From a virus (taxonomy: Duplodnaviria; Caudoviricetes): a stretch of DNA of 64,000 bases. The DNA lies in IMG/VR virus record IMGVR_UViG_3300027969_002497, positions 1,034-65,033 of that record; one strand, given 5' to 3'. Shown one piece after another: positions 690 to 63,530 of this stretch (its first letter is position 1; each line of letters starts with the position of its first letter). A program made the position numbers and the translations under genes. The notes beneath the pieces are model-generated. The model was given only the letters and a program-made list of their open reading frames with translations. It had not been told where the DNA came from and searched no databases.

Positions 690-2099
690 TTAGAGCCAAG
701 ATTTGATGGCGTTTTCGTTGATGTAAGCGGCCTTGATTGCGTCAAGGGCGGCACGGGACTCAGCGGGTTGCCGAGCGGTAATGGCAGACTGCCAAGCCTT
801 GTCCACACTCAGCACAGACAGGCCGCGAATGAATGCAAGGGCAGAACGAATCGAGGGTGCATCGATGATGTCGCCTGTGTCAACCTTGGCACGGGCGGCA
901 GTGATGGCATCCACTACGTGGCAGGCCAAGGCCTGATGGCAACCAGTGTGTCGAATCAAAGCCTCGACTTCCTGATCACGGGGTAAGAATTCAAACTGCA
1001 CCACATGCGAGAAGCGGTCAGCCAGTGATGAATTCATTTGTCGGGTGCCTGTGTAGCGTCCTGAGGCATCACCATTGGTCAGCGTATTGTCAGCCGCGAA
1101 AACCAAAACACCCTGCGCTCTGCGCTGAGGTTGGCCTCCGATGTTGACGGCACTGTTGACCTCAAGCAGACCATTGAGCGGTGCCAGTTCTCCCGCGTCA
1201 CAGTTGGAAATCTCATCGAGCAAAATCACAGTCGATGGGGAAGTGAACGCAGTCAGGAACGCACCACGTTTAAACACTGTCGCACCATTCTCAAGGCCGA
1301 CAGAGCCGATGTAGTCTTCTGTCGTTGTGTACTTGTGAAAGTTAATGCGGGTGAATGAGCGGCCTGTGCGGGCGGCAAACTGCTTGGCGGTCTCGCTCTT
1401 GCCCGTACCCTTTTCGCCTCCGAACCACAGGTTTTCACCTTTGTTCTGAGCCAACAACAGGTACTCCAAAATGTCCTTAGACCACACAAAATTGGGGTCA
1501 ATGGCGGGTGCATCGGGTGCATTCCACATGTCCACATAGACCTCAAGGCCGTGCACATCGAGCACACTCACACCGAACACATCGAGGGTAGTCTTTTTGT
1601 CAACAATTGTGGCGGCAGTCGCGGAGGCGATCACGTCCTGAGCGCCCGCATCGATCACAGCCTGTTTAAACGGGGCAAAGGCCTTGGCAATGGCGGATGC
1701 CACTTCAGCGGCAACCTTGGTGTCATCGATGCTTGATGAGGCTTGCACCTTGGCGAGTTGGTCAAGGGTGATGCGGATGTTGGACACGTCACCCGCAATT
1801 GCGGCAACCGATCCATCGAGTGCGCGGGTAGCATCGAGACCCTGCAAGGCATAGGCATGGGCACGATTCGCGACAGCTTCAAGGGCGCTTGTATCGACAC
1901 CCGCAGTGGCAACCACAGGGGTAGCATTCTGCACCTGAGCCAAGGTCAGATTGCCTGCATCGATTTGCTCAGCCAACCAAGCGACACGGTCAAGCTTGGT
2001 GTTCAAGTGGGAGGGTGCACCATGGGCAGTGGTTGCACCGACAATTTTACCAACTGGGATTGCCAACAGTTGGTCACGCAAAGTCAAAGGTCTAGTCAT
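690..2099 (-). CDS. MoxR/CobS-type AAA+ ATPase
   Basis: Walker A GEKGTGKS, Walker B ILLDEIS, sensor/Arg-finger region SLADRF, SIR motif; 469 aa. Confidence 0.9.
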   Translation of the reverse strand: MTRPLTLRDQLLAIPVGKIVGATTAHGAPSHLNTKLDRVAWLAEQIDAGNLTLAQVQNATPVVATAGVDTSALEAVANRAHAYALQGLDATRALDGSVAAIAGDVSNIRITLDQLAKVQASSSIDDTKVAAEVASAIAKAFAPFKQAVIDAGAQDVIASATAATIVDKKTTLDVFGVSVLDVHGLEVYVDMWNAPDAPAIDPNFVWSKDILEYLLLAQNKGENLWFGGEKGTGKSETAKQFAARTGRSFTRINFHKYTTTEDYIGSVGLENGATVFKRGAFLTAFTSPSTVILLDEISNCDAGELAPLNGLLEVNSAVNIGGQPQRRAQGVLVFAADNTLTNGDASGRYTGTRQMNSSLADRFSHVVQFEFLPRDQEVEALIRHTGCHQALACHVVDAITAARAKVDTGDIIDAPSIRSALAFIRGLSVLSVDKAWQSAITARQPAESRAALDAIKAAYINENAIKSWL

Positions 2100-2123
2100 T
2101 TTTTCTCTCCTAGGGTACTGGTT

Positions 2124-2738
2124 TCAAGCAAGGGCGAACATGTCACCACAGCGGCATGTTGGAAGTTCTACGTCACCGTGGGCGTTGTATACCCACTTGG
2201 CGGTCATGCGGATCGAGCACTGGCATGTCGGGCATCGGGCAAGCAACATGCGGGTGCCTTGGCTTTTGTGTGAGGCAATGTCAACCTTGGCATGCGGGTA
2301 GATGCCCAGTGAATCGATGATGGCAATGTAGGCGTTGATGAAGTCCTGCCCGTGGGTGACCTCCTTGTAGGGGCTCGACTGTTTGCCTGCGGGGAGGATG
2401 TGCATGGCCTCAGCGACACGCTCATAGGCAAGGTTGGTGACGGTCAGCGCACCCTTGGCAGTGCGGCACAACTGGGCGATCAGAGTCTCGGCAACCTTGA
2501 TCGGGTCAGCGAGGATCGGTGAGATCCAAATTTCATAGTGCCCATCGGCTGAGTTGGTGTTGGGGATGCACTCGCCAAGCACCTTGAAGCCTGAGCGTTT
2601 TGCGTTGGTAGGGTAGCCAGTGGCAACCCGAATTTCAGCGGGCAGTGTGTGCCCACGTGAGGAGAAAAAGGGACGCAGTTCATCGACTGCGGCATTGAGC
2701 CAAGCCTCACGGTTGGCGTGGATAGATGGAAGTTGCAT
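2124..2738 (-). CDS. SprT-like zinc-ribbon protein with a degenerate HExxH motif
   Basis: REAWL...IRVATGYP...GEC...EIWISP...LGIYPHA...TRMLLARCPTC...CRC matches phage SprT-like proteins; start at 2738 after GGAG. Confidence 0.65.
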   Translation of the reverse strand: MQLPSIHANREAWLNAAVDELRPFFSSRGHTLPAEIRVATGYPTNAKRSGFKVLGECIPNTNSADGHYEIWISPILADPIKVAETLIAQLCRTAKGALTVTNLAYERVAEAMHILPAGKQSSPYKEVTHGQDFINAYIAIIDSLGIYPHAKVDIASHKSQGTRMLLARCPTCQCSIRMTAKWVYNAHGDVELPTCRCGDMFALA

Positions 2739-2754
2739 GGATGGTCTCCGAAGT

Positions 2755-2810
2755 GTGGCGAAATTACCACTGCAATGCACTGACTCGCAGTGCATCACGG
2801 TGAAAATTAA
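2755..2810 (-). repeat. Intergenic structured repeat, copy 1
   Basis: GTGGCGAAATTACCAC-TGCAATGCACTG...CAGTGCATCACGGTGAAAATTA; similar to 3145-3198 and 3695-3743. Confidence 0.75.
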
Positions 2811-3124
2811 GGGCAGTTGGCATGCTCACGCAGTGCACCAAGCAGGGTCAGGCCAAGCGCATGCTTGCAAATCACGTCACCCCAATTGCCAAGCGGCTCA
2901 TGTGTGAGGGCAAGCAACAGGTCTTGCCTGTCCTCTTCAGTGCGACTGATAGCACCGAAAAAGAAAAACGCCTGTTGGTAAACAAAGGCCTCACGGGTCT
3001 GCACGTTCCAACGGGTAGCGTTGGGGTACTTGTTGAAGTCATTCTGCGCAGACTTCAGAGTGGCTTTGAGAGTGGCGAGCACCTCGAATGATTGCAATTG
3101 GAAGGTGTCAGTGGTAACGGTCAT
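2807..3124 (-). CDS. Hypothetical early protein
   Basis: 105-aa ORF with AGGA RBS, co-oriented with neighbours. Confidence 0.7.
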   Translation of the reverse strand: MTVTTDTFQLQSFEVLATLKATLKSAQNDFNKYPNATRWNVQTREAFVYQQAFFFFGAISRTEEDRQDLLLALTHEPLGNWGDVICKHALGLTLLGALREHANCP

Positions 3125-3144
3125 GATTTGTCCTATGGGTTGAA

Positions 3145-3198
3145 GTGCGACTTAGCACTGCAATGCACCCGTGTGAGGTGCATCACGCTGATAAGTCA
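3145..3198 (-). repeat. Intergenic structured repeat, copy 2
   Basis: GTGC-GACTTA-GCAC-TGCAATGCACC...GGTGCATCACGCTGA-TAAGTCA. Confidence 0.8.
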
Positions 3199-3387: not shown

Positions 3388-3512
3388 GCGGCAACCTTTC
3401 TGTTTAAACACTCGTTGTAAGTGCCAGTGTAGAAAATGCGGTAGCCGTTGCGCTCTGTATCGCCCTTGCAAACAATGATGTTGCCGTGGCGGTCAATCTG
3501 TGCGGTGTACAT
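3384..3512 (-). CDS. Small hypothetical protein (MYTAQIDRHGN...)
   Basis: Manual translation, 42 aa, RBS GGGAGAG, coupled to neighbours. Confidence 0.6.
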   Translation of the reverse strand: MYTAQIDRHGNIIVCKGDTERNGYRIFYTGTYNECLNRKVAA

Positions 3513-5047: not shown

Positions 5048-5203
5048 CCCCACCCGTGCCCCGCCCCCACTTGGCACGAGTCGGCACCCGCCCGCGTATT
5101 ACGCTCTAATCCACTCTTCCCAATATCTTCCATTTACAGAACACCCCCCCCTTCACTTCCAAATCCAAAACACCCCCCCTATATATATTTTTCGTTTAAA
5201 CAC

Positions 5204-5232
5204 TTGCGAACGTTCGTATTTGCGTTTAAACT
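5204..5232 (+). promoter_or_regulatory. sigma70-like promoter containing a CGAACGTTCG palindrome and GTTTAAAC sites
   Basis: TTGCGA-17 bp-TAAACT. Confidence 0.6.
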
Positions 5233-7195: not shown

Positions 7196-9685
7196 ATGAG
7201 CATCGATAAAGCAGTCAACCAAGCACCTATGGGTCTCGACAATTTGATGGATACAGAAGGGTCTGTCGAAATTGAAATCATTAACCCAGAAGGCCTCACC
7301 ATTGGAGTCGATGGCGTTGCAGTGGATCTGCTTCCAGAGCCAGAGGACGAAGGCTTTGATGACAACCTCGCAGAATACATGGACGAGGGCGAGCTAGAGA
7401 AAGTCGCAGGCGACCTGCTTGAGTTAGTGGACACTGACATTACCAGCCGCAAAGACTGGACCGACATGTATGTCAAAGGTCTAGATGTTTTGGGAATGAA
7501 ATATGAAGAACGTACCGAGCCATGGAACGGTGCATGCGGTGTGTTTTCCACCGTACTCACCGAAGCGGCAGTCAGGTTTCAAAGTGAGACTATTATTGAA
7601 ACTTTTCCAGCGCAAGGCCCCGTCAAAACGCAGATTATCGGTGCTATTGATAAACTTAAAGAAGAGGCTGCGGAGCGTGTCAAAGAAGACATGAACTATA
7701 AGCTCACGGAAGGTATGCCTGAGTACCGCCCTGAGCATGAGCGTATGTTGTACTCCTTGGGTCTGGCCGGAGCAGCTTTTAAGAAGGTTTACTACGACCC
7801 CTCACTGGGCCGGCAAGCTTCTATTTTCTTACCCGCAGAAGATGTAATTATTCCGTTTGGCGCTTCTAGTGCGATGACATCAGAGCGCGTGACTCACATC
7901 ATGCGTAAAACCAAAAACGACATCAAGAAGCTTCAAGTGTCAGGCTTCTATTTGGATGTTGAATTAGGTGATCCACTGAATTTCTACACCGACGTAGAAA
8001 AGAAAAAAGCAGAAGACCAAGGCTACACCGTCAATGATGATGGCCGCTACCAGATCCTTGAGATCCACGTGGACTATGACTTGCCCGGCTATGAGGACGA
8101 AGACGGTATCGCTCTGCCTTACGTCATCACCTTAGAGCGCGGCACAAGCAAGATTCTGGCAATCCGCAGAAACTGGCTGGAGGACGATGCAGCTCGGTTA
8201 AAGCGCCAGCACTTTGTACAGTACACCTACGTACCCGGATTTGGTGCTTATGGTCTAGGTTTGATTCACCTGATCGGTGGATACGCCCGCGCAGGCACAT
8301 CATTGATTCGCCAATTGGTGGACGCTGGAACATTGTCTAACTTGCCCGGAGGCCTGAAGACACGTGGCATGCGCATCAAGAGCGATGACACACCAATCCA
8401 GCCCGGTGAGTTCCGTGACGTAGACGTCCCAATGGGTTCCGTCAAAGACAACATCATGACGCTGCCGTACAAAGAGCCATCACAGGTTCTGGCAGGACTG
8501 TTAGATAGGATTACAGAGGAAGGTAGACGTCTAGGCTCCATCGCAGACATGAACATCAGCGATATGTCTGCCAACGCTCCGGTAGGCACAACACTAGCAT
8601 TGCTTGAGCGCCAGCTCAAAACAATGTCGGCTGTTCAGGCCCGTGTGCATTATTCAATGAAGCAGGAGTTTAAACTGCTCAAAGACATCATTCGTGATTA
8701 CACGCCCGGTGAGTATGAGTACGACCCCTCCTCAGGTGACGCACGAGCCAAGCAAGCAGACTACGACATGGTGGATGTTATCCCAGTGTCTGATCCAAAC
8801 TCTGCAACGATGGCCCAGCGGATCATGCAGTACCAAGCTGTTATTCAGTTGGCCCAAGGTGCCCCACAGATCTATGACCTGCCCCAGTTGCACCGCCAGA
8901 TGATTGAAGTGCTAGGCATTAAAAACGCCGACAAGCTTGTACCAATCGAAGACGATCAAACCCCCCGCGATCCTATTTCGGAAAACATGGCATTCCTCAC
9001 AGGAAAGCCAACCAAAGCGTTTATTTTCCAAGACCACGACGCACACATTGCAGTCCACACATCCATGATGCAGGACCCAATGGTGATGGGCCAGATGGGT
9101 CAAAACCCCATGGCCCAACAAATGCAAGCGGCCATGATGGCTCACGTTGCCGAGCACATTGCATTCCAGTACCGCTCTAAGATTGAACAACAGCTCGGAG
9201 CTACATTGCCTGCACCAAACGCCAACCTCAGCGAGCAGGTGGAAGTTCAGTTGTCCAAGCTGGTGGCTCAGGCTGCGGCTCAGTTGTTACAGGTCAACAA
9301 GTCTCAGGCCGCTCAGCAGCAAGCCCAACAGGCCCAGCAAGACCCAGTGGTCCAGATGCAGCAACAGGAATTGGCAATCAAGCAACAAGATGCCCAGACC
9401 AAAGCGCAGAAAGTACAAGGGGACTTGGCTATCAAGCAGGCAGAGCTTCAACTCAAAATGCAGCAAGCCCAAAACCAGCAAGGGGAAGACCCAGTGCTGG
9501 CCGCTCAACGTGTCCAGCAAGAGATCGCTCAGGCAGAGCAATTGCATCAGTCAGAGCTTGCCCGTAAGGAGCAACAACATGCTCAGAGCCTGACCCACAA
9601 CCAGCAAACACAAGATCTGTTGGCTAAACAAAAAATGTTGCAAATGTTACTAAACACAACACAACAACCTAAGAAGGAAGAGTGA
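7196..9685 (+). CDS. Portal protein (podovirus type, Q-rich C-terminal barrel)
   Basis: 829 aa after terL; FKKVYYD, GFGAYGLGLIH, long Q-rich coiled coil. Confidence 0.85.
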   Translation: MSIDKAVNQAPMGLDNLMDTEGSVEIEIINPEGLTIGVDGVAVDLLPEPEDEGFDDNLAEYMDEGELEKVAGDLLELVDTDITSRKDWTDMYVKGLDVLGMKYEERTEPWNGACGVFSTVLTEAAVRFQSETIIETFPAQGPVKTQIIGAIDKLKEEAAERVKEDMNYKLTEGMPEYRPEHERMLYSLGLAGAAFKKVYYDPSLGRQASIFLPAEDVIIPFGASSAMTSERVTHIMRKTKNDIKKLQVSGFYLDVELGDPLNFYTDVEKKKAEDQGYTVNDDGRYQILEIHVDYDLPGYEDEDGIALPYVITLERGTSKILAIRRNWLEDDAARLKRQHFVQYTYVPGFGAYGLGLIHLIGGYARAGTSLIRQLVDAGTLSNLPGGLKTRGMRIKSDDTPIQPGEFRDVDVPMGSVKDNIMTLPYKEPSQVLAGLLDRITEEGRRLGSIADMNISDMSANAPVGTTLALLERQLKTMSAVQARVHYSMKQEFKLLKDIIRDYTPGEYEYDPSSGDARAKQADYDMVDVIPVSDPNSATMAQRIMQYQAVIQLAQGAPQIYDLPQLHRQMIEVLGIKNADKLVPIEDDQTPRDPISENMAFLTGKPTKAFIFQDHDAHIAVHTSMMQDPMVMGQMGQNPMAQQMQAAMMAHVAEHIAFQYRSKIEQQLGATLPAPNANLSEQVEVQLSKLVAQAAAQLLQVNKSQAAQQQAQQAQQDPVVQMQQQELAIKQQDAQTKAQKVQGDLAIKQAELQLKMQQAQNQQGEDPVLAAQRVQQEIAQAEQLHQSELARKEQQHAQSLTHNQQTQDLLAKQKMLQMLLNTTQQPKKEE

Positions 9686-13323: not shown

Positions 13324-13352
13324 TTGCATTGGTTTAAACGTAGTGGTATAAA
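13324..13352 (+). promoter_or_regulatory. sigma70-like promoter with GTTTAAAC in the spacer
   Basis: TTGCAT-17 bp-TATAAA with extended -10 TG. Confidence 0.55.
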
Positions 13353-52053: not shown

Positions 52054-52241
52054 CTCTTCTCCTTATGTATTCTGTCCCAGTGTTCTCCATACTCTTCTTC
52101 AGCCATAGCCCACTGAAATAAAAATACCCACATGTTGACAGTGTCGTGGTGGATTTCGTAGTAACGCTCAGCCTGAGCAAGGTTCTCGGCCTTACATCTT
52201 TCAATGTAGCTTTCTCGCGTGTCATCGTTGTACATAGTCAA
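52050..52241 (-). CDS. Hypothetical protein
   Basis: 63-aa coupled ORF. Confidence 0.5.
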   Translation of the reverse strand: MTMYNDDTRESYIERCKAENLAQAERYYEIHHDTVNMWVFLFQWAMAEEEYGEHWDRIHKEKR

Positions 52242-52585: not shown

Positions 52586-52866
52586 GCTTGTCCCCTTGCT
52601 CGGATTATTTCAGCAGGTTCATGTGGTTCGTAAAACCCAATGCCGTTGTCTCTGTCATCAAACAGTTTTGCACACGCCTCACGCTCTAGCGCAATAGCCA
52701 CATCAACCGCTTTTTCAGCGGCTTTCATTGCCGCGTCAGTTAATCGCTCGCGCTCGGCAGAAGCGACAAGGTTGGCAAAGCGTTCAAGCCTCTCGTCACC
52801 AATTTCAAGATATTCTTTTGACCAACCGCACTTTAGCGCCATGCGAATAATGTCTTCTCTGTTCAT
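52582..52866 (-). CDS. Mosaic small protein (EREACAK...IRARG family)
   Basis: Motif shared with 58647 and 59224 genes. Confidence 0.65.
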   Translation of the reverse strand: MNREDIIRMALKCGWSKEYLEIGDERLERFANLVASAERERLTDAAMKAAEKAVDVAIALEREACAKLFDDRDNGIGFYEPHEPAEIIRARGQA

Positions 52867-53045
52867 GACTCCTCCTGTAGTGATACAGGCATGTAGTGGC
52901 ATGCCTTGCTCTTACTGTTTTTTACATTGACTGTGACGCGACCCTTCGGTTGCTTGGGGTAGTCTGCCCACCGCTTGCAGTTACAGCACTTAGCACTGAT
53001 CTGCTCGGGCTTGCATAGGATATAACCAAACAGTAACGGGATCAT
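52863..53045 (-). CDS. Small Cys-rich protein
   Basis: C..C.NCKRW; coupled. Confidence 0.5.
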   Translation of the reverse strand: MIPLLFGYILCKPEQISAKCCNCKRWADYPKQPKGRVTVNVKNSKSKACHYMPVSLQEES

Positions 53046-53248
53046 TCACCAAGCTCCTCAAAGATTTGATCCGTTAAATCACGTACCCTCTTCAACACAG
53101 CGTTCATGTCTGCCTTGTGTGTAAACTCACCTGTGACAGCCATCTTGATGTTTGTAAGAGCCTTGTACATAATGGGACCCTTTAACGCAAACAACAAGTT
53201 GTCCTCGTCATCAGGGTACGTAAATTCAATGACTGCTTTGGTTTTCAT
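53042..53248 (-). CDS. Hypothetical protein
   Basis: MKTKAVIEF.YP.DE; coupled. Confidence 0.6.
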   Translation of the reverse strand: MKTKAVIEFTYPDDEDNLLFALKGPIMYKALTNIKMAVTGEFTHKADMNAVLKRVRDLTDQIFEELGE

Positions 53249-53402
53249 TTAGGCGTCCCATTGGTTTAAACACAAGCCATTTATCACCTAGCTGCAAAAC
53301 TGAACGCACCCACTTGCGTTGATTGTGTTGGTTGGTATGGTCAGGCACTAGATGATTGTTGTAGATCTGCCTTGCCTTCTGACGTAGTTGCTGTGTCTGC
53401 AT
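53226..53402 (-). CDS. Hypothetical protein
   Basis: NQRKWVRSV..LGDKWL. Confidence 0.6.
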   Translation of the reverse strand: MQTQQLRQKARQIYNNHLVPDHTNQHNQRKWVRSVLQLGDKWLVFKPMGRLNENQSSH

Positions 53403-53625
53403 GCTTGTCTCCTGTGATTTTTTCAATTAATGATGTGGGCATCTTGCTTGCAATCCAAAAGCCCAACTGATTTTTACTGTACCCACGCTCAATCATTTCC
53501 TCCGGTGTACGGCAACGCCTGTCCACCCCGTACTTACCAACACGGTGCCCCGAAAAGGCACCCGTACTGTTGAAGTACTCCTTACAGCCTTGGCACTGAT
53601 TGCGGTCACCCTTTAAAGGAATCAT
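53341..53625 (-). CDS. Phage zinc-binding protein (CxxC...F..HR...C)
   Basis: CQGCKEYFNS..AF..HRVG...RRCRTPEEM. Confidence 0.65.
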   Translation of the reverse strand: MIPLKGDRNQCQGCKEYFNSTGAFSGHRVGKYGVDRRCRTPEEMIERGYSKNQLGFWIASKMPTSLIEKITGDKHADTATTSEGKADLQQSSSA

Positions 53626-53921
53626 GCAACCTCCCGCATAAGGTTCTTGCTGACCTCATCGCAGATCACATCAGCAAATGACTGCCCCGAGGGGAAGCGC
53701 ATCTGACATGCGTGGTGACCGGCAATGACTTCGCAGGCCTTATTTAAACCATCGTTAAAGCCTTGGATGTAAGGGTCCCCCTCAGACATCCGAATGCTTA
53801 GGCCTTCACGCAGAACCTGAGCCATGGTGATGCGTTGCTTTTTAGAAAACTTCTTAAGCTTGACGTAGTCGGCATCGTCGATGTACGTCATAAAGGGTTT
53901 CAGTTTATTAGAATGGGTCAT
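53622..53921 (-). CDS. Ribbon-helix-helix DNA-binding protein (putative)
   Basis: PFMTYID...KLKKFS.K..ITMAQVLRE. Confidence 0.6.
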   Translation of the reverse strand: MTHSNKLKPFMTYIDDADYVKLKKFSKKQRITMAQVLREGLSIRMSEGDPYIQGFNDGLNKACEVIAGHHACQMRFPSGQSFADVICDEVSKNLMREVA

Positions 53922-54297
53922 CAAAGCTCCCTGTTTCAAATTCATGAACTAAGGCATCAAACCTAACCTTAGCCTCAATGTTTCCGTGCAGCTCAGTACG
54001 TGACTGAATTCCACAGCGTTTACACAGCATGTGAGCTGTATCGGTTTCGTTGTCGCACATCAAGAATTCTTGGAAGTCAGGGTTGCGACACAGCATTCCG
54101 GCCTTCTGCACACGGTTGTCGTATGCGGTAGCGGATTCATCGTCCTGTATGCGCACTACTGCGCATGCGTAACGTGCCCCAACAAAGTCGCGAATTAGTT
54201 CTTCGGGCGCTTCGTCAGGGTGTATGGCTAGCGTCAAGACAAAACCGGTACGGTCTTGCTTGAGCGCTACTTTACGTGCTTCAAATTGCATAGCCAT
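53908..54297 (-). CDS. Hypothetical protein
   Basis: AGMLCRNP.FQ.F...CGIQSRTEL. Confidence 0.7.
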   Translation of the reverse strand: MAMQFEARKVALKQDRTGFVLTLAIHPDEAPEELIRDFVGARYACAVVRIQDDESATAYDNRVQKAGMLCRNPDFQEFLMCDNETDTAHMLCKRCGIQSRTELHGNIEAKVRFDALVHEFETGSFDDPF

Positions 54298-54792
54298 TTA
54301 AACGGTCTTCCGTTGGCTGGCAAGGTAATCAACAATGATGTTCAGTCTGTTGATTTCTGCCCGTAGCTTTGCAATTTCTGCATCGTCTTTTGCCATTGTT
54401 TCCCGTAGCACAGCCTGCCCCTTGGTCGGCTCCTGCTTCTTCTCAAGCTCAGCATAAATGCGGTTTACTTGATTGACAGGATCCTCATCAGGCCAAGTAG
54501 GCGTGTTCATGGCAACTGACTTAGCTGTCCACTTACCTTCCGCCATGGCGACAAGATCCTTGGGAGGCCACTTTTTGCGAATCTCCTCACCAATCTTCCA
54601 CATGGTGTGGAACTTCCTCTTAGCGTTAGCACTGCCGGTAAAACCGTATTGGTAATACACCGCCTGTACCTTAGAGCGGGGGAAGCCAAGCTTGTTCACA
54701 ATCATGTCCAAGCTTGCGTAAGGGTGGTCTACAAGAAAATCCAACATAGCGTTGGTTGCGGGTTGTAATTTACGTGATGCTGTGTATCTCAT
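54298..54792 (-). CDS. Putative HTH + coiled-coil protein
   Basis: ASLDMIVNKLGFPRSKVQAV; C-terminal coiled coil. Confidence 0.55.
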   Translation of the reverse strand: MRYTASRKLQPATNAMLDFLVDHPYASLDMIVNKLGFPRSKVQAVYYQYGFTGSANAKRKFHTMWKIGEEIRKKWPPKDLVAMAEGKWTAKSVAMNTPTWPDEDPVNQVNRIYAELEKKQEPTKGQAVLRETMAKDDAEIAKLRAEINRLNIIVDYLASQRKTV

Positions 54793-54803
54793 GACCTGTC
54801 TCC

Positions 54804-55115
54804 TCAGAAAGGAATGTCGCTGTCGTCATCGGGGAACGACTGCGCTTGTGATTCCTGACGAACACTACCTCCCTGTGCGTTAGGCACAAAGCGATCCACT
54901 GCGATAGACAGATAGGTCTTGCCTGACTTGGACACCTTCTTCCAACCGGACAGCTTCACAATCACCAAACCGTTTTCAGTCTTGATGTTGGTGAGATCCT
55001 TCATGTTTAAAGCGATGTTCCCAAAGTAGTCAGGTGACTTAGGGGTCTTCTTGCTTTGGGTTGCAAACAACTGGCCTGAGTCAGGCATTGGTTTGAAATC
55101 AGAATTGGTACTCAT
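54804..55115 (-). CDS. ssDNA-binding protein (putative)
   Basis: PDY.G...LSGWKK...GKTYLS, acidic tail DDDSDIPF. Confidence 0.7.
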   Translation of the reverse strand: MSTNSDFKPMPDSGQLFATQSKKTPKSPDYFGNIALNMKDLTNIKTENGLVIVKLSGWKKVSKSGKTYLSIAVDRFVPNAQGGSVRQESQAQSFPDDDSDIPF

Positions 55116-55258
55116 TTTTGCTCTCCTTTAATAAATTCATAAATGTCGGTTAGTAAATCAAAAAACTCCACCTTCTCTTGGTGCTCAGCAAATACGGCAA
55201 ACGCCATTTCCACTGCCTTAATGCGCAAGCGCTGATCGACTGTTAAGTCGTTATTCAT
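55112..55258 (-). CDS. Small hypothetical protein
   Basis: Manual translation MNNDLTVDQRLRIKAVEMA..., 48 aa, coupled. Confidence 0.55.
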   Translation of the reverse strand: MNNDLTVDQRLRIKAVEMAFAVFAEHQEKVEFFDLLTDIYEFIKGEQK

Positions 55259-55977
55259 TTAGCCTCTCCTTCAGAAAATTGCTTTTTAAGTTCTTGGAAC
55301 TTGGTTAAGACCTGTGTGTACAGGTCGGGGTGCGTCACCTTCAGCGAGTCAAGCTGAAGCTGATTGCTCTTCCAGTAGCTGTTTAAACCAGCTACGGTGG
55401 TGCAGTGGTTGGTGTACTCGACCATTCCGTCTGCAAACAATTGGCGGCTAGCGTCTGAGTTGTCCCAACCATCACCCACTTGCAGGGGCTTGGTCTTCGC
55501 TAGAATCTTTTCGTACTTGGGGCCGTCTTCCTGTTTGGTTAACTCGCCCATTGGAGCTGTCGCCTGTGGCGTAGAAGCGGCTTTTGATTCCTCTTCGGGT
55601 AGGTCTTCCCCTGCGTAGATGTACAGCCCCAAACCGTGCAAAGAGACAGCCTTAGTCATACATCGAACAATTGCGGTGTTGACTTGAAAAGCGTCAGGGT
55701 TCTGAATAGGTTGGTTGCGATGATTCATCACAGGCAACATACAGGTACGTGGCTGACCAAACATGGTTACGGTCACCCAAACCATACCCGTACCGTTGAC
55801 GTCCATGTAGGGCATCTCAGTGTACTGGTCACGCATAAAAGTCTTGACCTCAAAGAATGCGGTTGGGTCAACTTTCAAGGCCTCTTGCCAAGCCCACGCC
55901 CATGACAGGTACGTCAGGCCGTTCTTCTTCTCAGTGTTCTCATTAACATTGACCTTCAACAAATCATGCGACGTCAT
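55255..55977 (-). CDS. Sak-like single-strand annealing protein (DUF1071)
   Basis: EKKNGLTYLSWAWAW, LPVM..RN, RC.TKA...HGLGLYIYAGEDLP. Confidence 0.85.
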   Translation of the reverse strand: MTSHDLLKVNVNENTEKKNGLTYLSWAWAWQEALKVDPTAFFEVKTFMRDQYTEMPYMDVNGTGMVWVTVTMFGQPRTCMLPVMNHRNQPIQNPDAFQVNTAIVRCMTKAVSLHGLGLYIYAGEDLPEEESKAASTPQATAPMGELTKQEDGPKYEKILAKTKPLQVGDGWDNSDASRQLFADGMVEYTNHCTTVAGLNSYWKSNQLQLDSLKVTHPDLYTQVLTKFQELKKQFSEGEAK

Positions 55978-57281: not shown

Positions 57282-57584
57282 GGTTTAAACCCGAAGCGGC
57301 AACTGCGGGGAGGAGAGATGTCAAATTGTACCACCGTGCATCAACTGATGTCTATAGACATCCATAGAGTTCCACAGAAGTCCAAGTAGTCTGCACGCAC
57401 TCTACCAGCCGAGCCTTATAGGTACGTCTTGGCGGGTGTGTTTAAACGTTGCGCAGCAGCCCCGGCGTGCTGGTTTCTGTTTAAACATCGCGGCAGCCAG
57501 AATACCACCGGGAAGTAAAACACAGCTGTAGGTTGTGTGTAAACATCTGCGCAGCCGCTGCTAAAAATATTTTTTGCATTGCTT

Positions 57585-59989: not shown

Positions 59990-60229
59990 ATGACCCGCAA
60001 TTACAAACAAGAATACACAACGCAGAAAGAACGTGGCGAACACGAGAACCGCATGGAGCGGCAACGTGCTAGGCGTAAGCTTGACGCAAAGGGAGTGACC
60101 CGTCACGGTAAAGACGTTGCCCACGTGAAGGCGCTCAGTAAAGGTGGTTCAAACGCAGATGGAATCAAACTGCAGTCCCCCAGCAAGAACCGCTCGTTTA
60201 AACGAACTTCATCAGGCGCGATGAAATGA
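59990..60229 (+). CDS. Small HNH-like protein
   Basis: RNYK.EY...GKDVAH.KALSKGGSN...KNRS. Confidence 0.65.
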   Translation: MTRNYKQEYTTQKERGEHENRMERQRARRKLDAKGVTRHGKDVAHVKALSKGGSNADGIKLQSPSKNRSFKRTSSGAMK

Positions 60230-61911
60230 ACGCTGAATTTGTGGATCAGTTCCACTTCAACGAATCTACTCGGGTAGCTTGCCCGTACTGCTCTCAGGAG
60301 CGAAGCAAAACAACACAAAAAGACATGACGCTGACGCGCAAAGCGGATGGTGCAGTCGTATTCCATTGTCACCACTGCCAAACCAATGGCTCGGTGCAAC
60401 CTACAAAACTGGAGAGAAAATTGGCCGCAGTCCCACAAACAACAATCATCTCGCACAAGCTAGGTGATGCGCATTATGCGTACCTAGCACAGCGTGGCAT
60501 ATCAGCCGCAACCGCAGACCTCATGAAACTCTTTGCCGCTGATAAGTATTTCAGTAAGCTAGGAAGGCAGGCAGATGCGATTGGCTTCCCCTACTACCGC
60601 AACGGTGCATTGGTTGCCGCTAAGTACCGATCATTCCCCGACAAGGACTTCACACAGGACGCAGGGGGCGCTCATGATTTCTTTGGCATTGAACATGTCA
60701 TCAAGGGGGAGCCGATCATCATCGTAGAAGGTGAGATTGATTGTTTAACTGCGATTGAGTGTGGTTTAAACAACGTGGTTTCCGTTCCTGCTGGCGCTCC
60801 AATTAAGGTGGCTGATGGTAAGGTGCTTCCGTCAGAGGACAAGAGATTTGCCTTTGTATGGAATGCCCGTGAGGTACTCGATGCCGCCCCATATGTGATC
60901 CTTGCAACCGATCAGGACACAGCAGGGCAAGCCCTCGCAGAGGAATTGGCTAGGCGTATTGGTAAGGAGAAGTGCAGGCTCGCCAAGTTCAGTCAGAAGG
61001 ATTTAAATGAGGTGCACCTGAGTGACCCGTCTCGGACGGGACACGTACAGGCGATCATCGACTCCGCCACACCGTACCCTATCAGCGGAATTTCTGACGC
61101 AGCTACGTACTATGACCGTTTAAACGACTTGTACTCGAAGGGGACGGGGAAGGGGTTCTCAACAGGGTATCAGTCGGTCGATGAAATTTATACAGTCGCA
61201 CCCGCACAACTCACAGTGGTGACAGGCTACCCGTCATCGGGTAAGTCAAACTTCATTGATCAGGTGATGGTCAACCTAGCTCGTGCGCATGACTGGAAGT
61301 TTGCGGTCTGCTCATTTGAGAATCAGCCTGAGATCCACATCAGCCGACTGATGGAAATCTACACACGCAAGCGCTTCTTTGAGGGCAGGGATCGTATGGC
61401 TGAGAGCGAGAAGGAGGAGGCGTTTAAATTCGTTAAGGAGCACTTCCTGTTCATCGATACAAACGGGGAGGAGCCAAGCACCTTGGACTCGATCCTTGAG
61501 CGGGCACGTGCGGCTGTGAAGCGGATGGGTGTACGGGGGCTGATCATTGACCCGTATAACTACATTGAACTGCCACGCAGTGAGGGCACTGAGACAGCGG
61601 CAATCAGCGACATGCTGACCCGTGTGCAGAAGTTCTGCAAGGCACATGATGTGCATACGTGGTTCATTGCGCACCCCTCTAAGATTACCCGTCAAGGCGT
61701 GGAACAGCCCCGCCCTGATGGGATGTCCATCGCAGGCTCAATGGCTTGGTGGGCAAAAACGGATTGCGGTCTCACCGTGCACCGAAAGGATCACCACGTT
61801 GAAATCGCAGTATGGAAGTGTCGCTACAGATGGGTAGGGACACAAGGTGAAACAACGATGCTCTACAACAAAACAGCGGGCACATATTCGGAGAACTTAG
61901 ATGCATTCTGA
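60226..61911 (+). CDS. Twinkle/T7 gp4-type primase-helicase
   Basis: Zn finger CPYC...CHHC, TOPRIM EGEID and ATDQD, Walker A GYPSSGKS, IIDPYN, AHPSK. Confidence 0.92.
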   Translation: MNAEFVDQFHFNESTRVACPYCSQERSKTTQKDMTLTRKADGAVVFHCHHCQTNGSVQPTKLERKLAAVPQTTIISHKLGDAHYAYLAQRGISAATADLMKLFAADKYFSKLGRQADAIGFPYYRNGALVAAKYRSFPDKDFTQDAGGAHDFFGIEHVIKGEPIIIVEGEIDCLTAIECGLNNVVSVPAGAPIKVADGKVLPSEDKRFAFVWNAREVLDAAPYVILATDQDTAGQALAEELARRIGKEKCRLAKFSQKDLNEVHLSDPSRTGHVQAIIDSATPYPISGISDAATYYDRLNDLYSKGTGKGFSTGYQSVDEIYTVAPAQLTVVTGYPSSGKSNFIDQVMVNLARAHDWKFAVCSFENQPEIHISRLMEIYTRKRFFEGRDRMAESEKEEAFKFVKEHFLFIDTNGEEPSTLDSILERARAAVKRMGVRGLIIDPYNYIELPRSEGTETAAISDMLTRVQKFCKAHDVHTWFIAHPSKITRQGVEQPRPDGMSIAGSMAWWAKTDCGLTVHRKDHHVEIAVWKCRYRWVGTQGETTMLYNKTAGTYSENLDAF

Positions 61912-62236
61912 CAGTTTAAACAACCAACCAGCAGGCTCACCAAATGAGCCAGCACAGATCCCAGCAACGCGTTTAAACAAGCGTGAAGAAATTGCTGAGT
62001 GTTACGATGAGGGTATGCTTTTTTTAAGCGAACCCGAATACGATGAGGCCATCCTTGGGGTGGCTCGAAGGTTTGGACAGGAGGAGGCCGTTGCCTATGA
62101 CGCAGACAAGGTCTATGGGATCATTGGCAAACTTCTAGACACAGATGACATCACAGTCATCTATGACTACTTTCAGTACAACATCATTGGCGCTTATGTG
62201 GGTGAGCGAACACCCGTATTCGTAGATGTTGTTTAA
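61901..62236 (+). CDS. Conserved hypothetical protein
   Basis: DEAILG...AYD...YF.YNIIGAYVGE.TPVF. Confidence 0.7.
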   Translation: MHSDSLNNQPAGSPNEPAQIPATRLNKREEIAECYDEGMLFLSEPEYDEAILGVARRFGQEEAVAYDADKVYGIIGKLLDTDDITVIYDYFQYNIIGAYVGERTPVFVDVV

Positions 62237-62303
62237 ACGTTCCGCCGGCAGCCAGAAACAAAATCCTGCTGCGGCGTACTGTTTAAACGCATTTTTATAG
62301 GCC

Positions 62304-62332
62304 AAAAAAAAGGGAGCGTAATGCTCCCTTTT
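62304..62332. terminator. Bidirectional terminator between convergent operons
   Basis: AAAAAAAAGGGAGC-GTAAT-GCTCCCTTTT. Confidence 0.8.
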
Positions 62333-62571
62333 CAATCCTTGATTCTCGCTTGATGTACTGCTAGGTGCATGACCTTGTGTCGGCCACACAGTCGCGGGTA
62401 TCGGTACTCATCCAGTCTATGGACTGACCAAACCCCGTTGTGGTAGGTGATGTATCGCTCTCCGATGGGTATGAATCTCTCATGGTTTACAAGCTCCAGT
62501 AAGTGGTCATGGGCATAGGCCTTTTTGAGGAAGTCGGGTGCATGGTGCGTCACAGTCTTAACTTTACGCAT
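62332..62571 (-). CDS. Hypothetical early protein
   Basis: 79 aa, coupled. Confidence 0.55.
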   Translation of the reverse strand: MRKVKTVTHHAPDFLKKAYAHDHLLELVNHERFIPIGERYITYHNGVWSVHRLDEYRYPRLCGRHKVMHLAVHQARIKD

Positions 62572-62810
62572 CAGTGCACCTCATCGCTCGATGGACGCAT
62601 GAAGCGCTCCATGTCGTAGGTAGCCGCCACAGCAGACAGCAACTCATCCTTGTCGTAGTCCTCATGCACGGCAAGGCATACAGCCGCCTTGAACAGGACA
62701 CCAAGCAGTGACTCAGGATCCAGTTCAGAGCGTTGCATGACCTCGACAATCTCTGCATAGCTTGCGCTAAGGCGCTTGACCTCCTCCTCACTCAGTTGTC
62801 TGACTTTCAT
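62571..62810 (-). CDS. Hypothetical early protein
   Basis: 79 aa, coupled. Confidence 0.6.
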   Translation of the reverse strand: MKVRQLSEEEVKRLSASYAEIVEVMQRSELDPESLLGVLFKAAVCLAVHEDYDKDELLSAVAATYDMERFMRPSSDEVH

Positions 62811-63048
62811 CGCTTTTCTCCATGTATCGGACTAAGGCCTGAGCCTGCTCATTGCCGTGCATTTTAAGAATGATCTCGTACATCTGCGGGGCAATGGCGA
62901 TCAGTCGGGCATTCGCCCGTTGGGTGGCTACAGGTAGATTTTTGTTGACGCATGATCCAACTTGAGGTTGCCCGTGCTCATTCTCATAGCCCCATACAGT
63001 AGCGCTGTGCGCAGTCCAAGGGTGCGGTGTAATGTGTTTAAACATCAT
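62788..63048 (-). CDS. Hypothetical early protein
   Basis: TP.PW...ANARLIA.AP.MYE motif common in phage early proteins. Confidence 0.65.
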   Translation of the reverse strand: MMFKHITPHPWTAHSATVWGYENEHGQPQVGSCVNKNLPVATQRANARLIAIAPQMYEIILKMHGNEQAQALVRYMEKSDESQTTE

Positions 63049-63137
63049 GGCCTCCAGTAAAACAAATCAAGCAGTAAAACAATTGCACCGATCAGGAACA
63101 CGGCACGTTCTATTTTTTCCCATAGTGTGTGGTTCAT
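63045..63137 (-). CDS. Small membrane peptide
   Basis: Manual translation MNHTLWEKIERAVFLIGAIVLLLDLFYWRP. Confidence 0.55.
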   Translation of the reverse strand: MNHTLWEKIERAVFLIGAIVLLLDLFYWRP

Positions 63138-63364
63138 TCTTCTACCTTTCGATCACCAAACAGGCATTGAATGGCGGCATCGATGGCGTCCCAGTTGACA
63201 CCGATGTTGGCATCAAACGCATCAGCGACAAGATGCAGAACTTCAATGCATTCAGCCTCGGTTAATTCAAAGCCCCAGTAGTCCTCAAGCCGCGCCTCGA
63301 CATCCTCAACGTGCCAGTCATCGCGCAGTACCCAACCATCATGTGATTCAATCATTCGTGCCAT
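63134..63364 (-). CDS. Hypothetical early protein
   Basis: WHVEDV...LTE.EC.EVL...FDANIGVNW. Confidence 0.65.
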   Translation of the reverse strand: MARMIESHDGWVLRDDWHVEDVEARLEDYWGFELTEAECIEVLHLVADAFDANIGVNWDAIDAAIQCLFGDRKVEE

Positions 63365-63530
63365 TTTTGCTCTCCTTGTTTAAACGTGTTGATTTCAGAA
63401 TGCCCTTGGCAAACTCAATGTCGAGGGTCAGATGCTCGATCCATGAGCCATCATCGATGTAGCGGTCAGCAGACAGCACCAAGCTGTTCAGTGCCGCCCT
63501 AAGGTAGACAATCCGTTCTTGGTCAGTCAT
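63348..63530 (-). CDS. Hypothetical early protein
   Basis: 60 aa, RBS GGAGG. Confidence 0.55.
   Translation of the reverse strand: MTDQERIVYLRAALNSLVLSADRYIDDGSWIEHLTLDIEFAKGILKSTRLNKESKNGTND

What the first reader, a model, noticed from the sequence alone, without database searches (positions are those of the whole stretch)
1268..63385. Palindrome GTTTAAAC is about 30-fold over-represented, regionally confined and placed on promoters
By eye I count at least 34 exact GTTTAAAC sites: 1268, 1664, 3402, 5194, 5224, 13332, 18707, 31738, 40891, 42276, 42820, 44097, 47212, 47584, 47653, 48772, 49224, 51147, 51510, 51781, 53264, 55381, 57283, 57440, 57479, 60196, 60764, 61118, 61914, 61971, 62231, 62281, 63036, 63378. 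About one is expected for an 8-mer in 64 kb near 50% GC. One-mismatch variants (GTGTAAAC, GTTTAAAG, ATTTAAAC) are also frequent. Phages usually avoid palindromes. Of the 34 sites, 31 lie in the circularly contiguous arc 40.9 kb to 5.2 kb, and only 3 lie in the 35 kb of head/tail genes. Sites occur in coding DNA on both strands and overlap predicted promoters at 5204 and 13324. Inference: a selected genome-wide recognition site, such as a binding site for a phage or host protein (the polyvalent protein carries a ParB-like domain; several HTH/RHH genes are present), a self-mark, or an ejection/replication signal.
Basis: partly seen in the sequence, partly recalled or inferred. Interest (0 to 1): 0.85.

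Follow-up and report, generated by a model that had tools for sequence, protein, structure and literature searches.

The report
Phage GTTTAAAC sites tied to SprT-like protein
This freshwater phage keeps dozens of copies of the eight-letter DNA word GTTTAAAC under selection, and the word travels across unrelated phages with one small SprT-like zinc-ribbon protein that probably reads it.

Summary
GTTTAAAC occurs 38 times in the window (39 in the 65-kb circular phage contig) against 1.6 expected. Synonymous-codon shuffling predicts 3.8 sites in genes where 27 are seen. Eighty relatives hold 0.82 sites per kb. Single sites stay in place at 70-78% DNA identity, 15 of 18 against a 17% background. 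Candidate host genomes are not enriched.

Unrelated phage lineages that are rich in the word share one gene, a SprT/Spartan-like protein with a C-terminal KQxTR zinc ribbon (window 2124-2798, minus strand).
- Ten of 12 cultured phages with this gene are enriched in GTKTAAAC.
- The two exceptions lack the KQxTR ribbon.
- None of 8 phages without the gene is enriched.
- The window's own copy has lost the protease HExxH motif but keeps the ribbon.

Best reading (about 0.55): the sites are docking sites for that ribbon module. Binding itself is untested.

I found no paper describing this pairing. Earlier agents of this scan reported the same pairing on other genomes. I reached it before reading their notes and tested it here.

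The parts
2124..2798 (-). SprT/Spartan-like protein gene (224-aa ORF; relatives start about 20 codons later and are 204 aa). HExxH is replaced by AQLCR. KSQGTR and a C-terminal CxxC...CxC ribbon are kept. Proposed reader of the sites.
1268..1275 (.). GTTTAAAC site, in the AAA ATPase gene, F-K frame
   Evidence: conserved in G1, G2, G3
1664..1671 (.). GTTTAAAC site, in the AAA ATPase gene, F-K frame
   Evidence: conserved in G1
3402..3409 (.). GTTTAAAC site, in small early gene 3196-3471
5194..5231 (.). pair of sites (5194, 5224) in the terS-terL gap
   Evidence: both conserved in G1 and G2
8668..8675 (.).
   Evidence: conserved in G1, G2
13332..13339 (.). intergenic GTTTAAAC site
   Evidence: conserved in G1, G2
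18707..18714 (.). GTTTAAAC site, L-N frame; GTGTAAAC at the same place in G1 and G2
31738..31745 (.). GTTTAAAC site, F-K frame
32580..32587 (.).
   Evidence: conserved in G2
37315..37322 (.).
39115..39122 (.).
40891..40898 (.). GTTTAAAC site, first of the dense arc
42276..49231 (.). eight sites inside the 3271-aa polyvalent-protein gene: 42276, 42820, 44097, 47212, 47584, 47653, 48772, 49224
   Evidence: 47212 conserved in G3 and 49224 in G1 and G2
51147..55388 (.). five sites in the minus-strand early genes and their gaps: 51147, 51510, 51781, 53264, 55381
57283..57486 (.). cluster of three sites (57283, 57440, 57479), with GTGTAAAC at 57537, in the poorly coding stretch 56.8-57.7 kb
60196..61125 (.). 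three sites (60196, 60764, 61118) at and in the primase/helicase gene
61914..62288 (.). cluster of four sites (61914, 61971, 62231, 62281) after the primase/helicase gene. The matching region of G003 has five sites about 46 b apart.
63036..63385 (.). two sites (63036, 63378) in small minus-strand genes

Best explanation
GTTTAAAC, or more exactly GTKTAAAC with a weak YGT..ACR flank, is a cis-acting site on double-stranded phage DNA. It is kept by selection at about 1 per kb in the early/replication arc and in the polyvalent-protein gene. Its most likely reader is the phage's own SprT/Spartan-like protein (window 2124-2798, minus strand), acting through its conserved C-terminal KQxTR zinc-ribbon module.

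Shown here:
- the sites are selected and conserved in position;
- the word is specific to phages rather than to the candidate hosts;
- across unrelated phages the word co-occurs with this gene, and specifically with its C-terminal module.

Inferred:
- the protein binds the sites;
- in phages that keep HExxH, binding tethers a DNA-dependent protease to the phage chromosome;
- in this clade the protease motif is lost, so the protein acts only as a site-bound DNA-binding factor;
- a site just upstream of the gene in several lineages gives autoregulation.

The final purpose is not settled. Candidates are clearing or excluding host proteins from phage DNA, regulating early genes, or marking phage DNA as self.
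For: Selection on the DNA.
- 38 sites against 1.63 expected.
- 27 sites in 84 CDS against 3.84 +/- 1.5 (maximum 8) in 300 synonymous-codon shuffles.
- F-K is written TTT-AAA in 33 of 49 cases and L-N as TTA-AAC in 21 of 73.
- In the arc, 23 of 28 peptide contexts that could carry the word do carry it, against 4 of 12 in the structural region. The site at 63036 is counted twice because two ORFs overlap there.

Conservation.
- The 80 best TerL relatives (80-95% aa identity) hold 579 sites in 708,831 b, and all 80 have at least one.
- Whole records hold 46, 49, 37, 13 and 25 sites, against 0-1 for the reversed word.
- 15 of 18, 14 of 18 and 4 of 6 aligned G0 sites are exact in G1, G2 and G3. Background conservation of 8-mers is 0.17, 0.17 and 0.09.

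Link from the motif to the gene.
- A collection scan for two sites 15-45 b apart gave 115 new loci.
- A SprT-family HMM hits 19 of the 33 loci with >= 1 site per kb, 4 of the 25 with 0.45-1 per kb and 0 of the 57 with < 0.45 per kb. Fisher 6e-11, lineages not independent.
- Among the 24 high-density loci with no DNA similarity to this phage, the most widespread ORF family (11 contigs) is this one.

Link from the gene to the motif, in cultured phages. Figures are sites seen against the Markov-1 expectation.
- UtzChips 23 / 0.07, KeAlii 23 / 0.27, R5C 17 / 0.77, Marky 37 / 0.22, Arya 7 / 1.95, Persinger 3 / 0.40.
- Venkman 34 in 38.6 kb.
- Mano 4, ep3 4 and KA2-1 8.

Phages without the gene. The profile was checked with 5 of 5 positive controls.
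- Host-matched controls: 0, 1, 0, 2 and 0 sites.
- The three nearest TerL relatives: 3, 1 and 1 sites.

Double dissociation.
- Epa5 (0 sites) and LK3 (1 site) keep HExxH but lack KQxTR and the ribbon cysteines.
- The G0 and L104/L153 clades have lost HExxH, keep KQxTR and the ribbon, and have the densest arrays.

Site next to the gene. A site lies 18-70 nt upstream of the gene's start in UtzChips, KeAlii, Marky, Persinger and Arya, and in Mano, ep3 and KA2-1.

Fold. pLDDT is 88. The best solved matches are minigluzincins including SPRTN (6mdx, Z 7.4, rmsd 4.1, 102 aligned) and Wss1 (5xbn, Z 7.3).
Against: - No binding was tested. The link is co-occurrence only.
- The 12 gene-bearing isolates were picked by me for host diversity from 164 hits. 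Several are related to each other: Arya, Mano, ep3 and KA2-1, and UtzChips and KeAlii.
- The enrichment is weak in Persinger (3), Mano (4) and ep3 (4).
- The two exceptions, Epa5 and LK3, belong to one virus family, so the dissociation rests on few lineages.
- 14 of the 33 high-density loci show no SprT hit. All of those I checked (5) are fragments 13-21% complete, so this is uninformative rather than contrary.
- In this window no site lies within 120 nt upstream of the SprT-like gene, and the gene's protease motif is dead.
- The fold Z-scores are middling by the tool's own warning. Pfam gives no hit for the window's own protein, although 11 of 27 aligned relatives hit PF10263.
- SPRTN's zinc sub-domain is known to me (recalled) as a binder of single-stranded DNA without sequence specificity.
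- The model does not explain why the sites are confined to one arc here and in Venkman but evenly spread in actinophages and R5C.
Confidence: 0.55

Rival explanations
1. The sites are read by another factor that I did not identify, either a different small phage protein or a conserved host protein. The SprT-like gene merely travels with them, for example as a co-regulated early gene whose promoter carries one of the operators.
For: - Only co-occurrence links SprT to the word.
- Most early genes of this phage have no family assignment.
- A site just upstream of the SprT gene fits the gene being a target of regulation as well as it fits autoregulation.
- The window's SprT-like protein has lost its catalytic motif.
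Against: - In an all-against-all comparison of ORFs from 12 motif-rich sequences, no other family is shared by more than 5, and that one is TerL. The 6- and 5-member clusters are ORFs overlapping the SprT gene on the other strand. SprT presence in the 12 was partly by construction.
- The hosts span Proteobacteria and Actinobacteria, so a single host reader would have to be very widely conserved.
- Host-matched phages without the gene are not enriched.
- Loss of the KQxTR ribbon goes with loss of the word.
Confidence: 0.2
2. The word marks an enzymatic event on the DNA, such as a site-specific nick, cut or base modification. Known parallels are the nick-associated motifs of phages T5, tf and Rembedalsseter, or a methylation-linked iterated palindrome like cyanobacterial HIP1.
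For: - The word is a strict 8-bp palindrome, identical to a type II restriction site.
- In Rembedalsseter-like phages a nick motif is clade-wide, mostly inside genes and regionally concentrated (PMC11780129, passages read).
- An HNH endonuclease gene lies at 50763-51059.
Against: - No methyltransferase was found by Pfam or PHROGs in the genes scanned. Not every ORF was scanned.
- The HNH gene is not shared by the other motif-rich phages.
- Candidate host genomes are not enriched, unlike HIP1 hosts.
- Actinophages use the asymmetric form GTGTAAAC in both orientations.
- This could not be tested on reads. All 24 public runs that hold the DNA are kept as contigs.
Confidence: 0.1
3. One reading: the sites are bound by the ParB-like domain of the injected polyvalent protein, or by an HTH/RHH/LexA-like regulator, as parS-like or operator sites.
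For: - A GHDGRHRARAL string, resembling a ParB/Srx box as I recall it, sits at residue 2337 of the polyvalent protein.
- There is a weak RHH match in gene 53622-53945 (E 0.005-0.007).
- The site-dense arc includes the polyvalent gene itself.
Against: - Pfam finds no ParB family at E <= 1.
- A relative of the polyvalent protein was found in only 1 of the 33 high-density loci (L181, 31% identity). It is absent from the shared families of the motif-rich isolates.
- No ParA partner was seen.
- The three nearest TerL relatives differ from this phage in many genes, so they do not discriminate.
Confidence: 0.05
4. The word acts in RNA. It could be a translation-initiation spacer (SD-GUUUAAAC-AUG), a cleavage site for an endoribonuclease that inactivates early mRNAs (as T4 RegB does at GGAG, recalled), or a U_UUA_AAC frameshift site.
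For: - In the L118 and L104 lineages many sites sit exactly between a GAGG-type Shine-Dalgarno and the ATG.
- 22% (128 of 579) and 11% (45 of 394) of sites lie 0-7 nt before an ATG-initiated ORF, against 9% and 6% for random positions.
- The sites concentrate in early genes.
Against: - Most sites are not at gene starts.
- In actinophages the asymmetric form occurs in both orientations relative to transcription, so the mRNA would carry two different words. The counts are 7 vs 3, 3 vs 9 and 10 vs 12.
- About half of the actinophage sites are intergenic.
- A strict palindrome is expected for double-stranded DNA recognition, not for RNA.
- Only the L-N frame (12 of 28 coding sites) could serve as a slippery heptamer.
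Confidence: 0.04
5. There is no function. The excess is a by-product of composition, codon-pair use or a mutational bias.
For: The Markov-6 expectation from the 7-mers is 35. This only says that the 7-mers are equally enriched.
Against: - Dinucleotide and synonymous-codon shuffles fail to reproduce the excess.
- Dipeptide counts are near expectation: FK 49 against 38, LN 73 against 75.
- Intergenic sites are over-represented, 11 of 39 in about 5% of the DNA.
- Sites are conserved in position 5-fold above background.
- The reversed word is absent.
Confidence: 0.01

Closest known systems
   Same: Dozens of copies of one short site are dispersed through a phage genome, inside genes as well as between them. 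They are kept by selection and are read by a phage-encoded protein.
   Different: Stoperators are 13-bp and asymmetric, are oriented with transcription, are read by an HTH immunity repressor and are specific to one phage cluster. Here the site is an 8-bp palindrome (or a near-palindrome used in both orientations). The candidate reader is a SprT-like zinc-ribbon protein. No repressor or integrase was found in this phage. The same word recurs in phages of Proteobacteria and Actinobacteria.
SPRTN/Spartan and Wss1 DNA-dependent metalloproteases (PDB 6mdx, 5xbn)
   Same: The candidate reader has the same minigluzincin protease fold followed by a small zinc-binding DNA-binding module. Relatives carry HExxH and match Pfam PF10263. 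A preprint on Cluster AZ phages reaches the same fold assignment for its gp46 (10.1101/2025.05.26.655371, passages read).
   Different: SPRTN and Wss1 are, as far as I recall, not sequence-specific, and they act on DNA-protein crosslinks in cells. Here a defined 8-bp word tracks the C-terminal module. In this phage the catalytic motif is lost (AQLCR).
KorA/KorB operators of IncP plasmids and C1 operators of phage P1; recalled
   Same: Palindromic or short operators are scattered over a whole mobile genome and read by one global regulator. As I recall it, the KorA operator is GTTTAGCTAAAC and shares the GTTTA/TAAAC arms.
   Different: Those systems have 7-17 sites, placed at promoters and read by HTH or ParB-type proteins. 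Here there are 39 sites, mostly inside genes.
HIP1 (GCGATCGC), the highly iterated palindrome of cyanobacteria; recalled (Elhai 2015)
   Same: An 8-bp palindrome at about 1 per kb, written into genes through codon choice.
   Different: HIP1 is a feature of the host genome and is tied to cognate methyltransferases. Here 151 sampled genomes of the candidate host family have at most 103 sites per 2.4 Mb and mostly fewer than the reversed word. No methyltransferase was found in the genes scanned.
Nick-associated motifs of phages T5, tf and Rembedalsseter (PMC11780129, passages read)
   Same: A clade-wide short motif, mostly in coding DNA, concentrated in one part of the genome, of unknown function.
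   Different: Those motifs are asymmetric, lie mainly on one strand and are shown to coincide with nicks. Nicks could not be tested here.

Membership tests
SprT-like / Spartan / Wss1 metalloprotease family (Pfam PF10263), for gene 2124-2798 | Sequence match to the family profile | tested here: inconclusive
   The window's own protein gives no Pfam family at E <= 0.01. 11 of its 27 aligned homologues match PF10263, best E 4e-8. tblastn finds 164 phage records, most annotated 'SprT-like protease'.
SprT-like / Spartan / Wss1 metalloprotease family (Pfam PF10263), for gene 2124-2798 | Minigluzincin protease fold | tested here: met
   Model pLDDT 88, pTM 0.83. Matches are 4jiu Z 7.5 (rmsd 2.8, 90 aligned), SPRTN 6mdx Z 7.4 (4.1, 102) and Wss1 5xbn Z 7.3 (3.3, 103). 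Foldseek's top hit is SPRTN 6mdw, E 0.015. The Z values are middling by the tool's own note.
SprT-like / Spartan / Wss1 metalloprotease family (Pfam PF10263), for gene 2124-2798 | Catalytic HExxH zinc-binding motif | tested here: not met
   The window has AQLCR where relatives at 45-50% identity have HELCH. The closest relatives (55-92% identity) also lack it. This copy is therefore a likely pseudo-protease within the family.
SprT-like / Spartan / Wss1 metalloprotease family (Pfam PF10263), for gene 2124-2798 | C-terminal zinc-binding DNA-binding sub-domain | tested here: met
   KSQGTR followed by CPTC...C.C, predicted as a small beta ribbon at residues 184-199. DNA binding itself is not testable with these tools.
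Stoperator-type dispersed operator array | Many selected copies of one short site dispersed through a phage genome | tested here: met
Stoperator-type dispersed operator array | Asymmetric site with one orientation relative to transcription | tested here: not met
   The site is a palindrome here. The asymmetric form in actinophages occurs in both orientations.
Stoperator-type dispersed operator array | Read by the phage immunity repressor of a temperate phage | tested here: inconclusive
   No integrase or HTH repressor appeared among the genes scanned. Many small genes have no assignment.
HIP1-type highly iterated palindrome | The same palindrome is iterated throughout the host genome | tested here: inconclusive
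   The host is unknown. Five MAGs that hold related TerL contigs have 3-68 sites in 2-4 Mb. 151 genomes of the family of one of them have at most 103. None is enriched.
HIP1-type highly iterated palindrome | Cognate DNA methyltransferase present | tested here: inconclusive
   None was found in the roughly 45 proteins scanned. The small structural-region ORFs were not scanned.
ParB-parS partition or condensation system | ParB protein with a recognisable ParB N-terminal domain and HTH, plus a ParA partner | tested here: not met
   No ParB family at E <= 1 in the polyvalent protein. Only a DGRHR string is present. No ParA was found. The AAA protein 690-2099 matches CobS-like and clamp-loader-like PHROGs.
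Nick-associated phage motif | Strand breaks at the motif in virion DNA | not testable with these tools
   All 24 runs holding the DNA are kept as contigs only.

The most novel reading that the evidence does not exclude
GTKTAAAC is a conserved 'address' that phages of at least two bacterial phyla write into their own chromosomes. It recruits a Spartan-like, DNA-dependent protease, or in clades such as this one its catalytically dead descendant, through a KQxTR zinc ribbon. This would be the first sequence-specific member of the crosslink-protease family. It would give phage DNA a self-mark from which DNA-bound host proteins (silencers, defence sensors, stalled enzymes) are cut away or excluded. 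The dense array on the early, first-expressed arc would protect the infection at its most vulnerable stage.
Probability: 0.25. Interest if true: 0.9.

Novelty: new variant of a known kind. Interest (0 to 1): 0.8.

Why it matters
Arrays of selected binding sites dispersed over a phage genome are known for a few repressors in single phage clusters. This case differs in two ways.

- The same 8-bp word recurs in freshwater, marine, enteric and soil phages of Proteobacteria and Actinobacteria.
- It tracks a widespread gene that is routinely annotated 'SprT-like protease' and has no known role in phages.

If the pairing holds, it assigns a function and a DNA target to a gene family present in at least 164 sequenced phages. 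It would also provide a natural sequence-specific relative of the Spartan/Wss1 proteases. And it gives a simple genomic signature, the GTKTAAAC z-score, for predicting this biology from sequence.

The pairing can be tested directly in easy systems. E. coli phage ep3, Enterobacter phage Arya and SEA-PHAGES Arthrobacter and Microbacterium phages all carry both the gene and the sites.

Tried and rejected
Host-wide motif or uptake sequence. Rejected for the candidate hosts. Five MAGs with related TerL contigs and 151 genomes of one candidate family are not enriched, and most have fewer sites than the reversed word. The true host is unknown.

Codon-pair or dipeptide artefact. Rejected.

Clade-wide feature of the capsid/terminase lineage. 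Rejected. The nearest TerL relatives at 56-58% identity have 0-3 sites.

Regular spacing in the window's arc. Not found: CV 0.88 against 0.96 for random placement, P = 0.34.

Promoter placement. Not reproduced. A TTGAC[AT]-spacer-motif arrangement occurs in only 15 of the 80 related loci.

ParB reading. No Pfam support.

Cultured relatives of the motif-rich uncultured lineages. blastn of L188 and L104 against the phage collection gave only short matches.

Nicks or ends at the sites on reads. All 24 runs are held as contigs, so I did not lay them.

Literature. Five full-text searches found no paper that links GTTTAAAC or GTGTAAAC to phage genomes or to SprT-like proteins.

Complex prediction. 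I ran none. The tool takes no DNA, and a dimer test would not decide the question.

Whole-contig SprT search in five high-density loci that had no hit. All five are fragments 13-21% complete, so the result is uninformative.

Full report
**1. The observation**

GTTTAAAC occurs 38 times in the window. Dinucleotide-preserving shuffles give 1.63 +/- 1.2, with a maximum of 4.

The window is bases 1034-65033 of a 65,033-b viral contig. The contig's ends overlap by about 130 b, so the assembly is circular. It holds 39 sites.

GTTTAAAC (39) stands with its two overlapping extensions, TGTTTAAA (42) and CGTTTAAA (39), far above every other 8-mer of the contig. The flanks carry only a weak preference: not G before the word and not C after it.

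31 of 38 sites lie in the arc 40.9 kb -> 64 kb -> 5.2 kb (1.09 per kb) and 7 lie in the rest (0.20 per kb). Binomial P = 2.7e-6.

**2. Not an artefact of composition or coding**

Coding sites use only the two frames without a stop: xxG TTT AAA Cxx (F-K, 16 sites) and xGT TTA AAC (L-N, 12 sites). Eleven of 39 sites are intergenic or at a gene edge, although about 95% of the contig is covered by ORF calls.

Shuffling synonymous codons within each of 84 ORFs gives 3.84 +/- 1.5 sites (maximum 8 in 300 shuffles) against 27 observed. The dipeptides themselves are near expectation (FK 49 against 38, LN 73 against 75). But F-K is written TTT-AAA in 33 of 49 cases and L-N as TTA-AAC in 21 of 73.

Of the peptide contexts that could carry the word synonymously, 23 of 28 carry it in the arc and 4 of 12 in the structural region. 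One site is counted twice because of overlapping ORF calls. Both codon choice and local protein sequence are therefore bent toward the word, and more so in the arc.

**3. Relatives**

The large terminase finds more than 598 viral contigs. The 80 best (80-95% aa identity) hold 579 sites in 708,831 b (0.82 per kb), and every one has at least one.

Five whole records hold 46, 49, 37, 13 and 25 sites, against 0-1 for the reversed word. The two complete ones show the same split into a dense arc and a sparse structural module.

Single sites are kept in place. Of the G0 sites that fall in blastn-aligned stretches (65-85% identity), 15 of 18 are exact in G1, 14 of 18 in G2 and 4 of 6 in G3. Random 8-mers of the same alignments are conserved in 17%, 17% and 9% of cases. 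Between G1 and G2 the figure is 24 of 30 against 24%. Changed sites are often GTGTAAAC.

That variant is itself about 9-fold enriched in the relatives (233 against 25 expected), as is CTTTAAAC (115 against 22). Changes at position 2 are depleted.

**4. Neither host nor capsid lineage**

A scan of one genome per species for the terminase gave 5 contigs. Two are in Burkholderiaceae or Burkholderiales MAGs and one in a Saprospiraceae MAG. Those genomes have 3-68 sites in 2-4 Mb. 151 genomes sampled from the family of one of them have at most 103, and mostly fewer than the reversed word. The host remains unknown.

Public runs that hold the DNA are freshwater metagenomes. 5 of 24 hold half or more of the sampled words, and two may be the source.

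The nearest sequenced relatives by terminase (56% identity: 023Pt_psg01, DSL-LC04, HTVC027P) have 3, 1 and 1 GTKTAAAC sites in 57-62 kb.

**5. The word occurs in unrelated phages**

I scanned the viral contig collection for two sites 15-45 b apart. This gave 115 new loci. 33 have at least 1 site per kb. 24 of these have under 500 b of blastn similarity to this phage, with G+C from 0.22 to 0.48. Together these 24 hold 394 sites in 194 kb, and their one-mismatch variants are at expectation.

In these lineages too the terminase and portal genes have no site, while the early genes have up to 3 per kb. Many sites fill the spacer between a GAGG-type ribosome-binding site and the ATG. Sites at gene starts are nevertheless a minority: 11-22% against 6-9% for random positions.

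**6. The common gene**

tblastn of all ORFs of this phage against the 33 dense loci showed one protein, window 2124-2798 (minus strand), as the most widely shared. It is present in 12 of the 33 dense loci and in 0 of 57 sparse loci.

An independent all-against-all clustering of the 24 distant loci put the same family first, in 11 contigs. With a profile built from 27 homologues the counts are 19 of 33 loci (>= 1 per kb), 4 of 25 (0.45-1 per kb) and 0 of 57 (< 0.45 per kb, 593 kb). Fisher 6e-11, lineages not independent.

I reached this before reading the scan's earlier notes. Those notes report the same pairing on several other genomes.

**7. Test in the other direction**

The family is annotated 'SprT-like protease' in 164 phage records. 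I picked 12 of them for host diversity.

| Phage | Sites | Expectation or control |
|---|---|---|
| UtzChips | 23 GTGTAAAC | Markov-1 expectation 0.07 |
| KeAlii | 23 | 0.27 |
| Marky | 35 + 2 | 0.22 |
| R5C | 17 GTTTAAAC | 0.77 |
| Arya | 7 | 1.95 |
| Persinger | 3 | 0.40 |
| Venkman | 34 in 38.6 kb, 30 of them in the first 15 kb beside the gene | reversed word 0 |
| Mano | 4 | reversed word 0 |
| ep3 | 4 | reversed word 0-2 per strand |
| KA2-1 | 8 | reversed word 2-3 per strand |
| Epa5 | 0 | reversed word 0 |
| LK3 | 1 | reversed word 0 |

Five host-matched phages without a profile hit have 0, 1, 0, 2 and 0 sites. They infect Microbacterium (three phages), Streptomyces griseus and Enterobacter. 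The profile found the gene in 5 of 5 positive controls. The three terminase neighbours also lack the gene.

The two exceptions are informative. Their proteins keep HExxH but have neither KQxTR nor the ribbon cysteines. Conversely, this phage's clade and the L104/L153 clade have lost HExxH, keep KQxTR and the ribbon, and have the densest arrays. The word therefore follows the C-terminal module, not the protease. This rests on few lineages.

**8. The protein**

The model has pLDDT 88. Residues 24-168 align with minigluzincin proteases:
- abylysin 4jiu, Z 7.5;
- SPRTN 6mdx, Z 7.4;
- Wss1 5xbn, Z 7.3.

A small beta ribbon follows. The Z values are middling by the tool's note, but they agree with PF10263 hits in 11 of 27 aligned relatives. 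They also agree with the published reading of the Cluster AZ gp46 (10.1101/2025.05.26.655371, passages).

**9. Level of action**

- In actinophages the asymmetric form lies in both orientations relative to transcription, and about half of the sites are intergenic. This argues for double-stranded DNA rather than RNA.
- A site lies 18-70 nt upstream of the gene's start in UtzChips, KeAlii, Marky, Persinger, Arya, Mano, ep3 and KA2-1. The last four are related to each other. No such site is present in this window.
- Spacing is more even than random in KeAlii (P = 0.009), R5C (0.025) and Marky (0.0004), but not in this phage's arc.

**10. Reading**

The best-supported account is a dispersed array of docking sites for the ribbon module of the SprT-like protein. 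What docking achieves is inference. The rivals are another reader, a nick or modification mark, the ParB-like or RHH candidates, an RNA role, and chance. They are weighed in their own sections.

**11. Limits**

- No binding test was possible.
- I chose the isolates by hand.
- Several lineages are related to each other.
- The host is unknown.
- Supplementary files and raw reads were not available.

Noticed in passing
window 2124-2798 (-): The SprT-like gene of this clade has AQLCR/AMLCH where relatives at 45-50% identity have HELCH. It is nevertheless conserved at 82-92% identity among close relatives, so it looks like a maintained pseudo-protease.
   Followed up: yes
L215 / record MT375522.1 (Methylophilales phage Venkman): A cultured phage shows a steep gradient of GTTTAAAC from the record's left end, where the SprT-like gp1 lies. 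Counts are 16 sites in 0-5 kb, 8 in 5-10, 6 in 10-15, 2 in 15-20 and 2 in the remaining 18.6 kb.
   Followed up: partly
L118:2150-4710 and L104:5590-6210: In two uncultured lineages the word fills the spacer between a GAGG-type ribosome-binding site and the ATG of successive small early genes (GAGGGA-GTTTAAAC-ATG).
   Followed up: partly
L104:175-9432: The densest lineage (37 sites in 12.4 kb) encodes a sigma-70 region-4 protein, a dNMP kinase, a class-II glutamine amidotransferase next to an Amidoligase_2 protein, a GT2-like protein and an SLT lysozyme. This might point to modified DNA or a phage sigma factor.
   Followed up: no
window 40970-50785 (+), residue about 2337: The polyvalent protein carries GHDGRHRARAL, a ParB/Srx-like string that Pfam does not detect. 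Pfam finds LPD38, ART-PolyVal and DUF7178.
   Followed up: partly
window 50763-51059 (-): A 98-aa HNH endonuclease (phrog_131, E 4e-27) lies directly after the polyvalent gene on the other strand.
   Followed up: no
window 690-2099 (-) and contig 44-697 (-): A CobS-like AAA ATPase and a CobT-like VWA protein lie in the same leftward operon as the SprT-like gene.
   Followed up: no
G011-G160 (genomes of the family of G007): In most of the roughly 2-Mb genomes of this bacterial family GTTTAAAC is rarer than its reversed word, for example 2 against 76 and 13 against 66. This is the usual avoidance of palindromes.
   Followed up: no
window 4080-4160 (-): The divergent region before the leftward operon reads TTGACA-CCC-ATTTAAAC-GCTCC-TAGAG on the minus strand. 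A one-mismatch copy of the word sits in the spacer of a promoter-like element. The tool's scan does not list it.
   Followed up: partly
G003:C1:25706-25896: A relative has five sites about 46 b apart (25706, 25752, 25788, 25834, 25889) just after its primase/helicase gene. This matches the window's cluster at 61914-62288.
   Followed up: no
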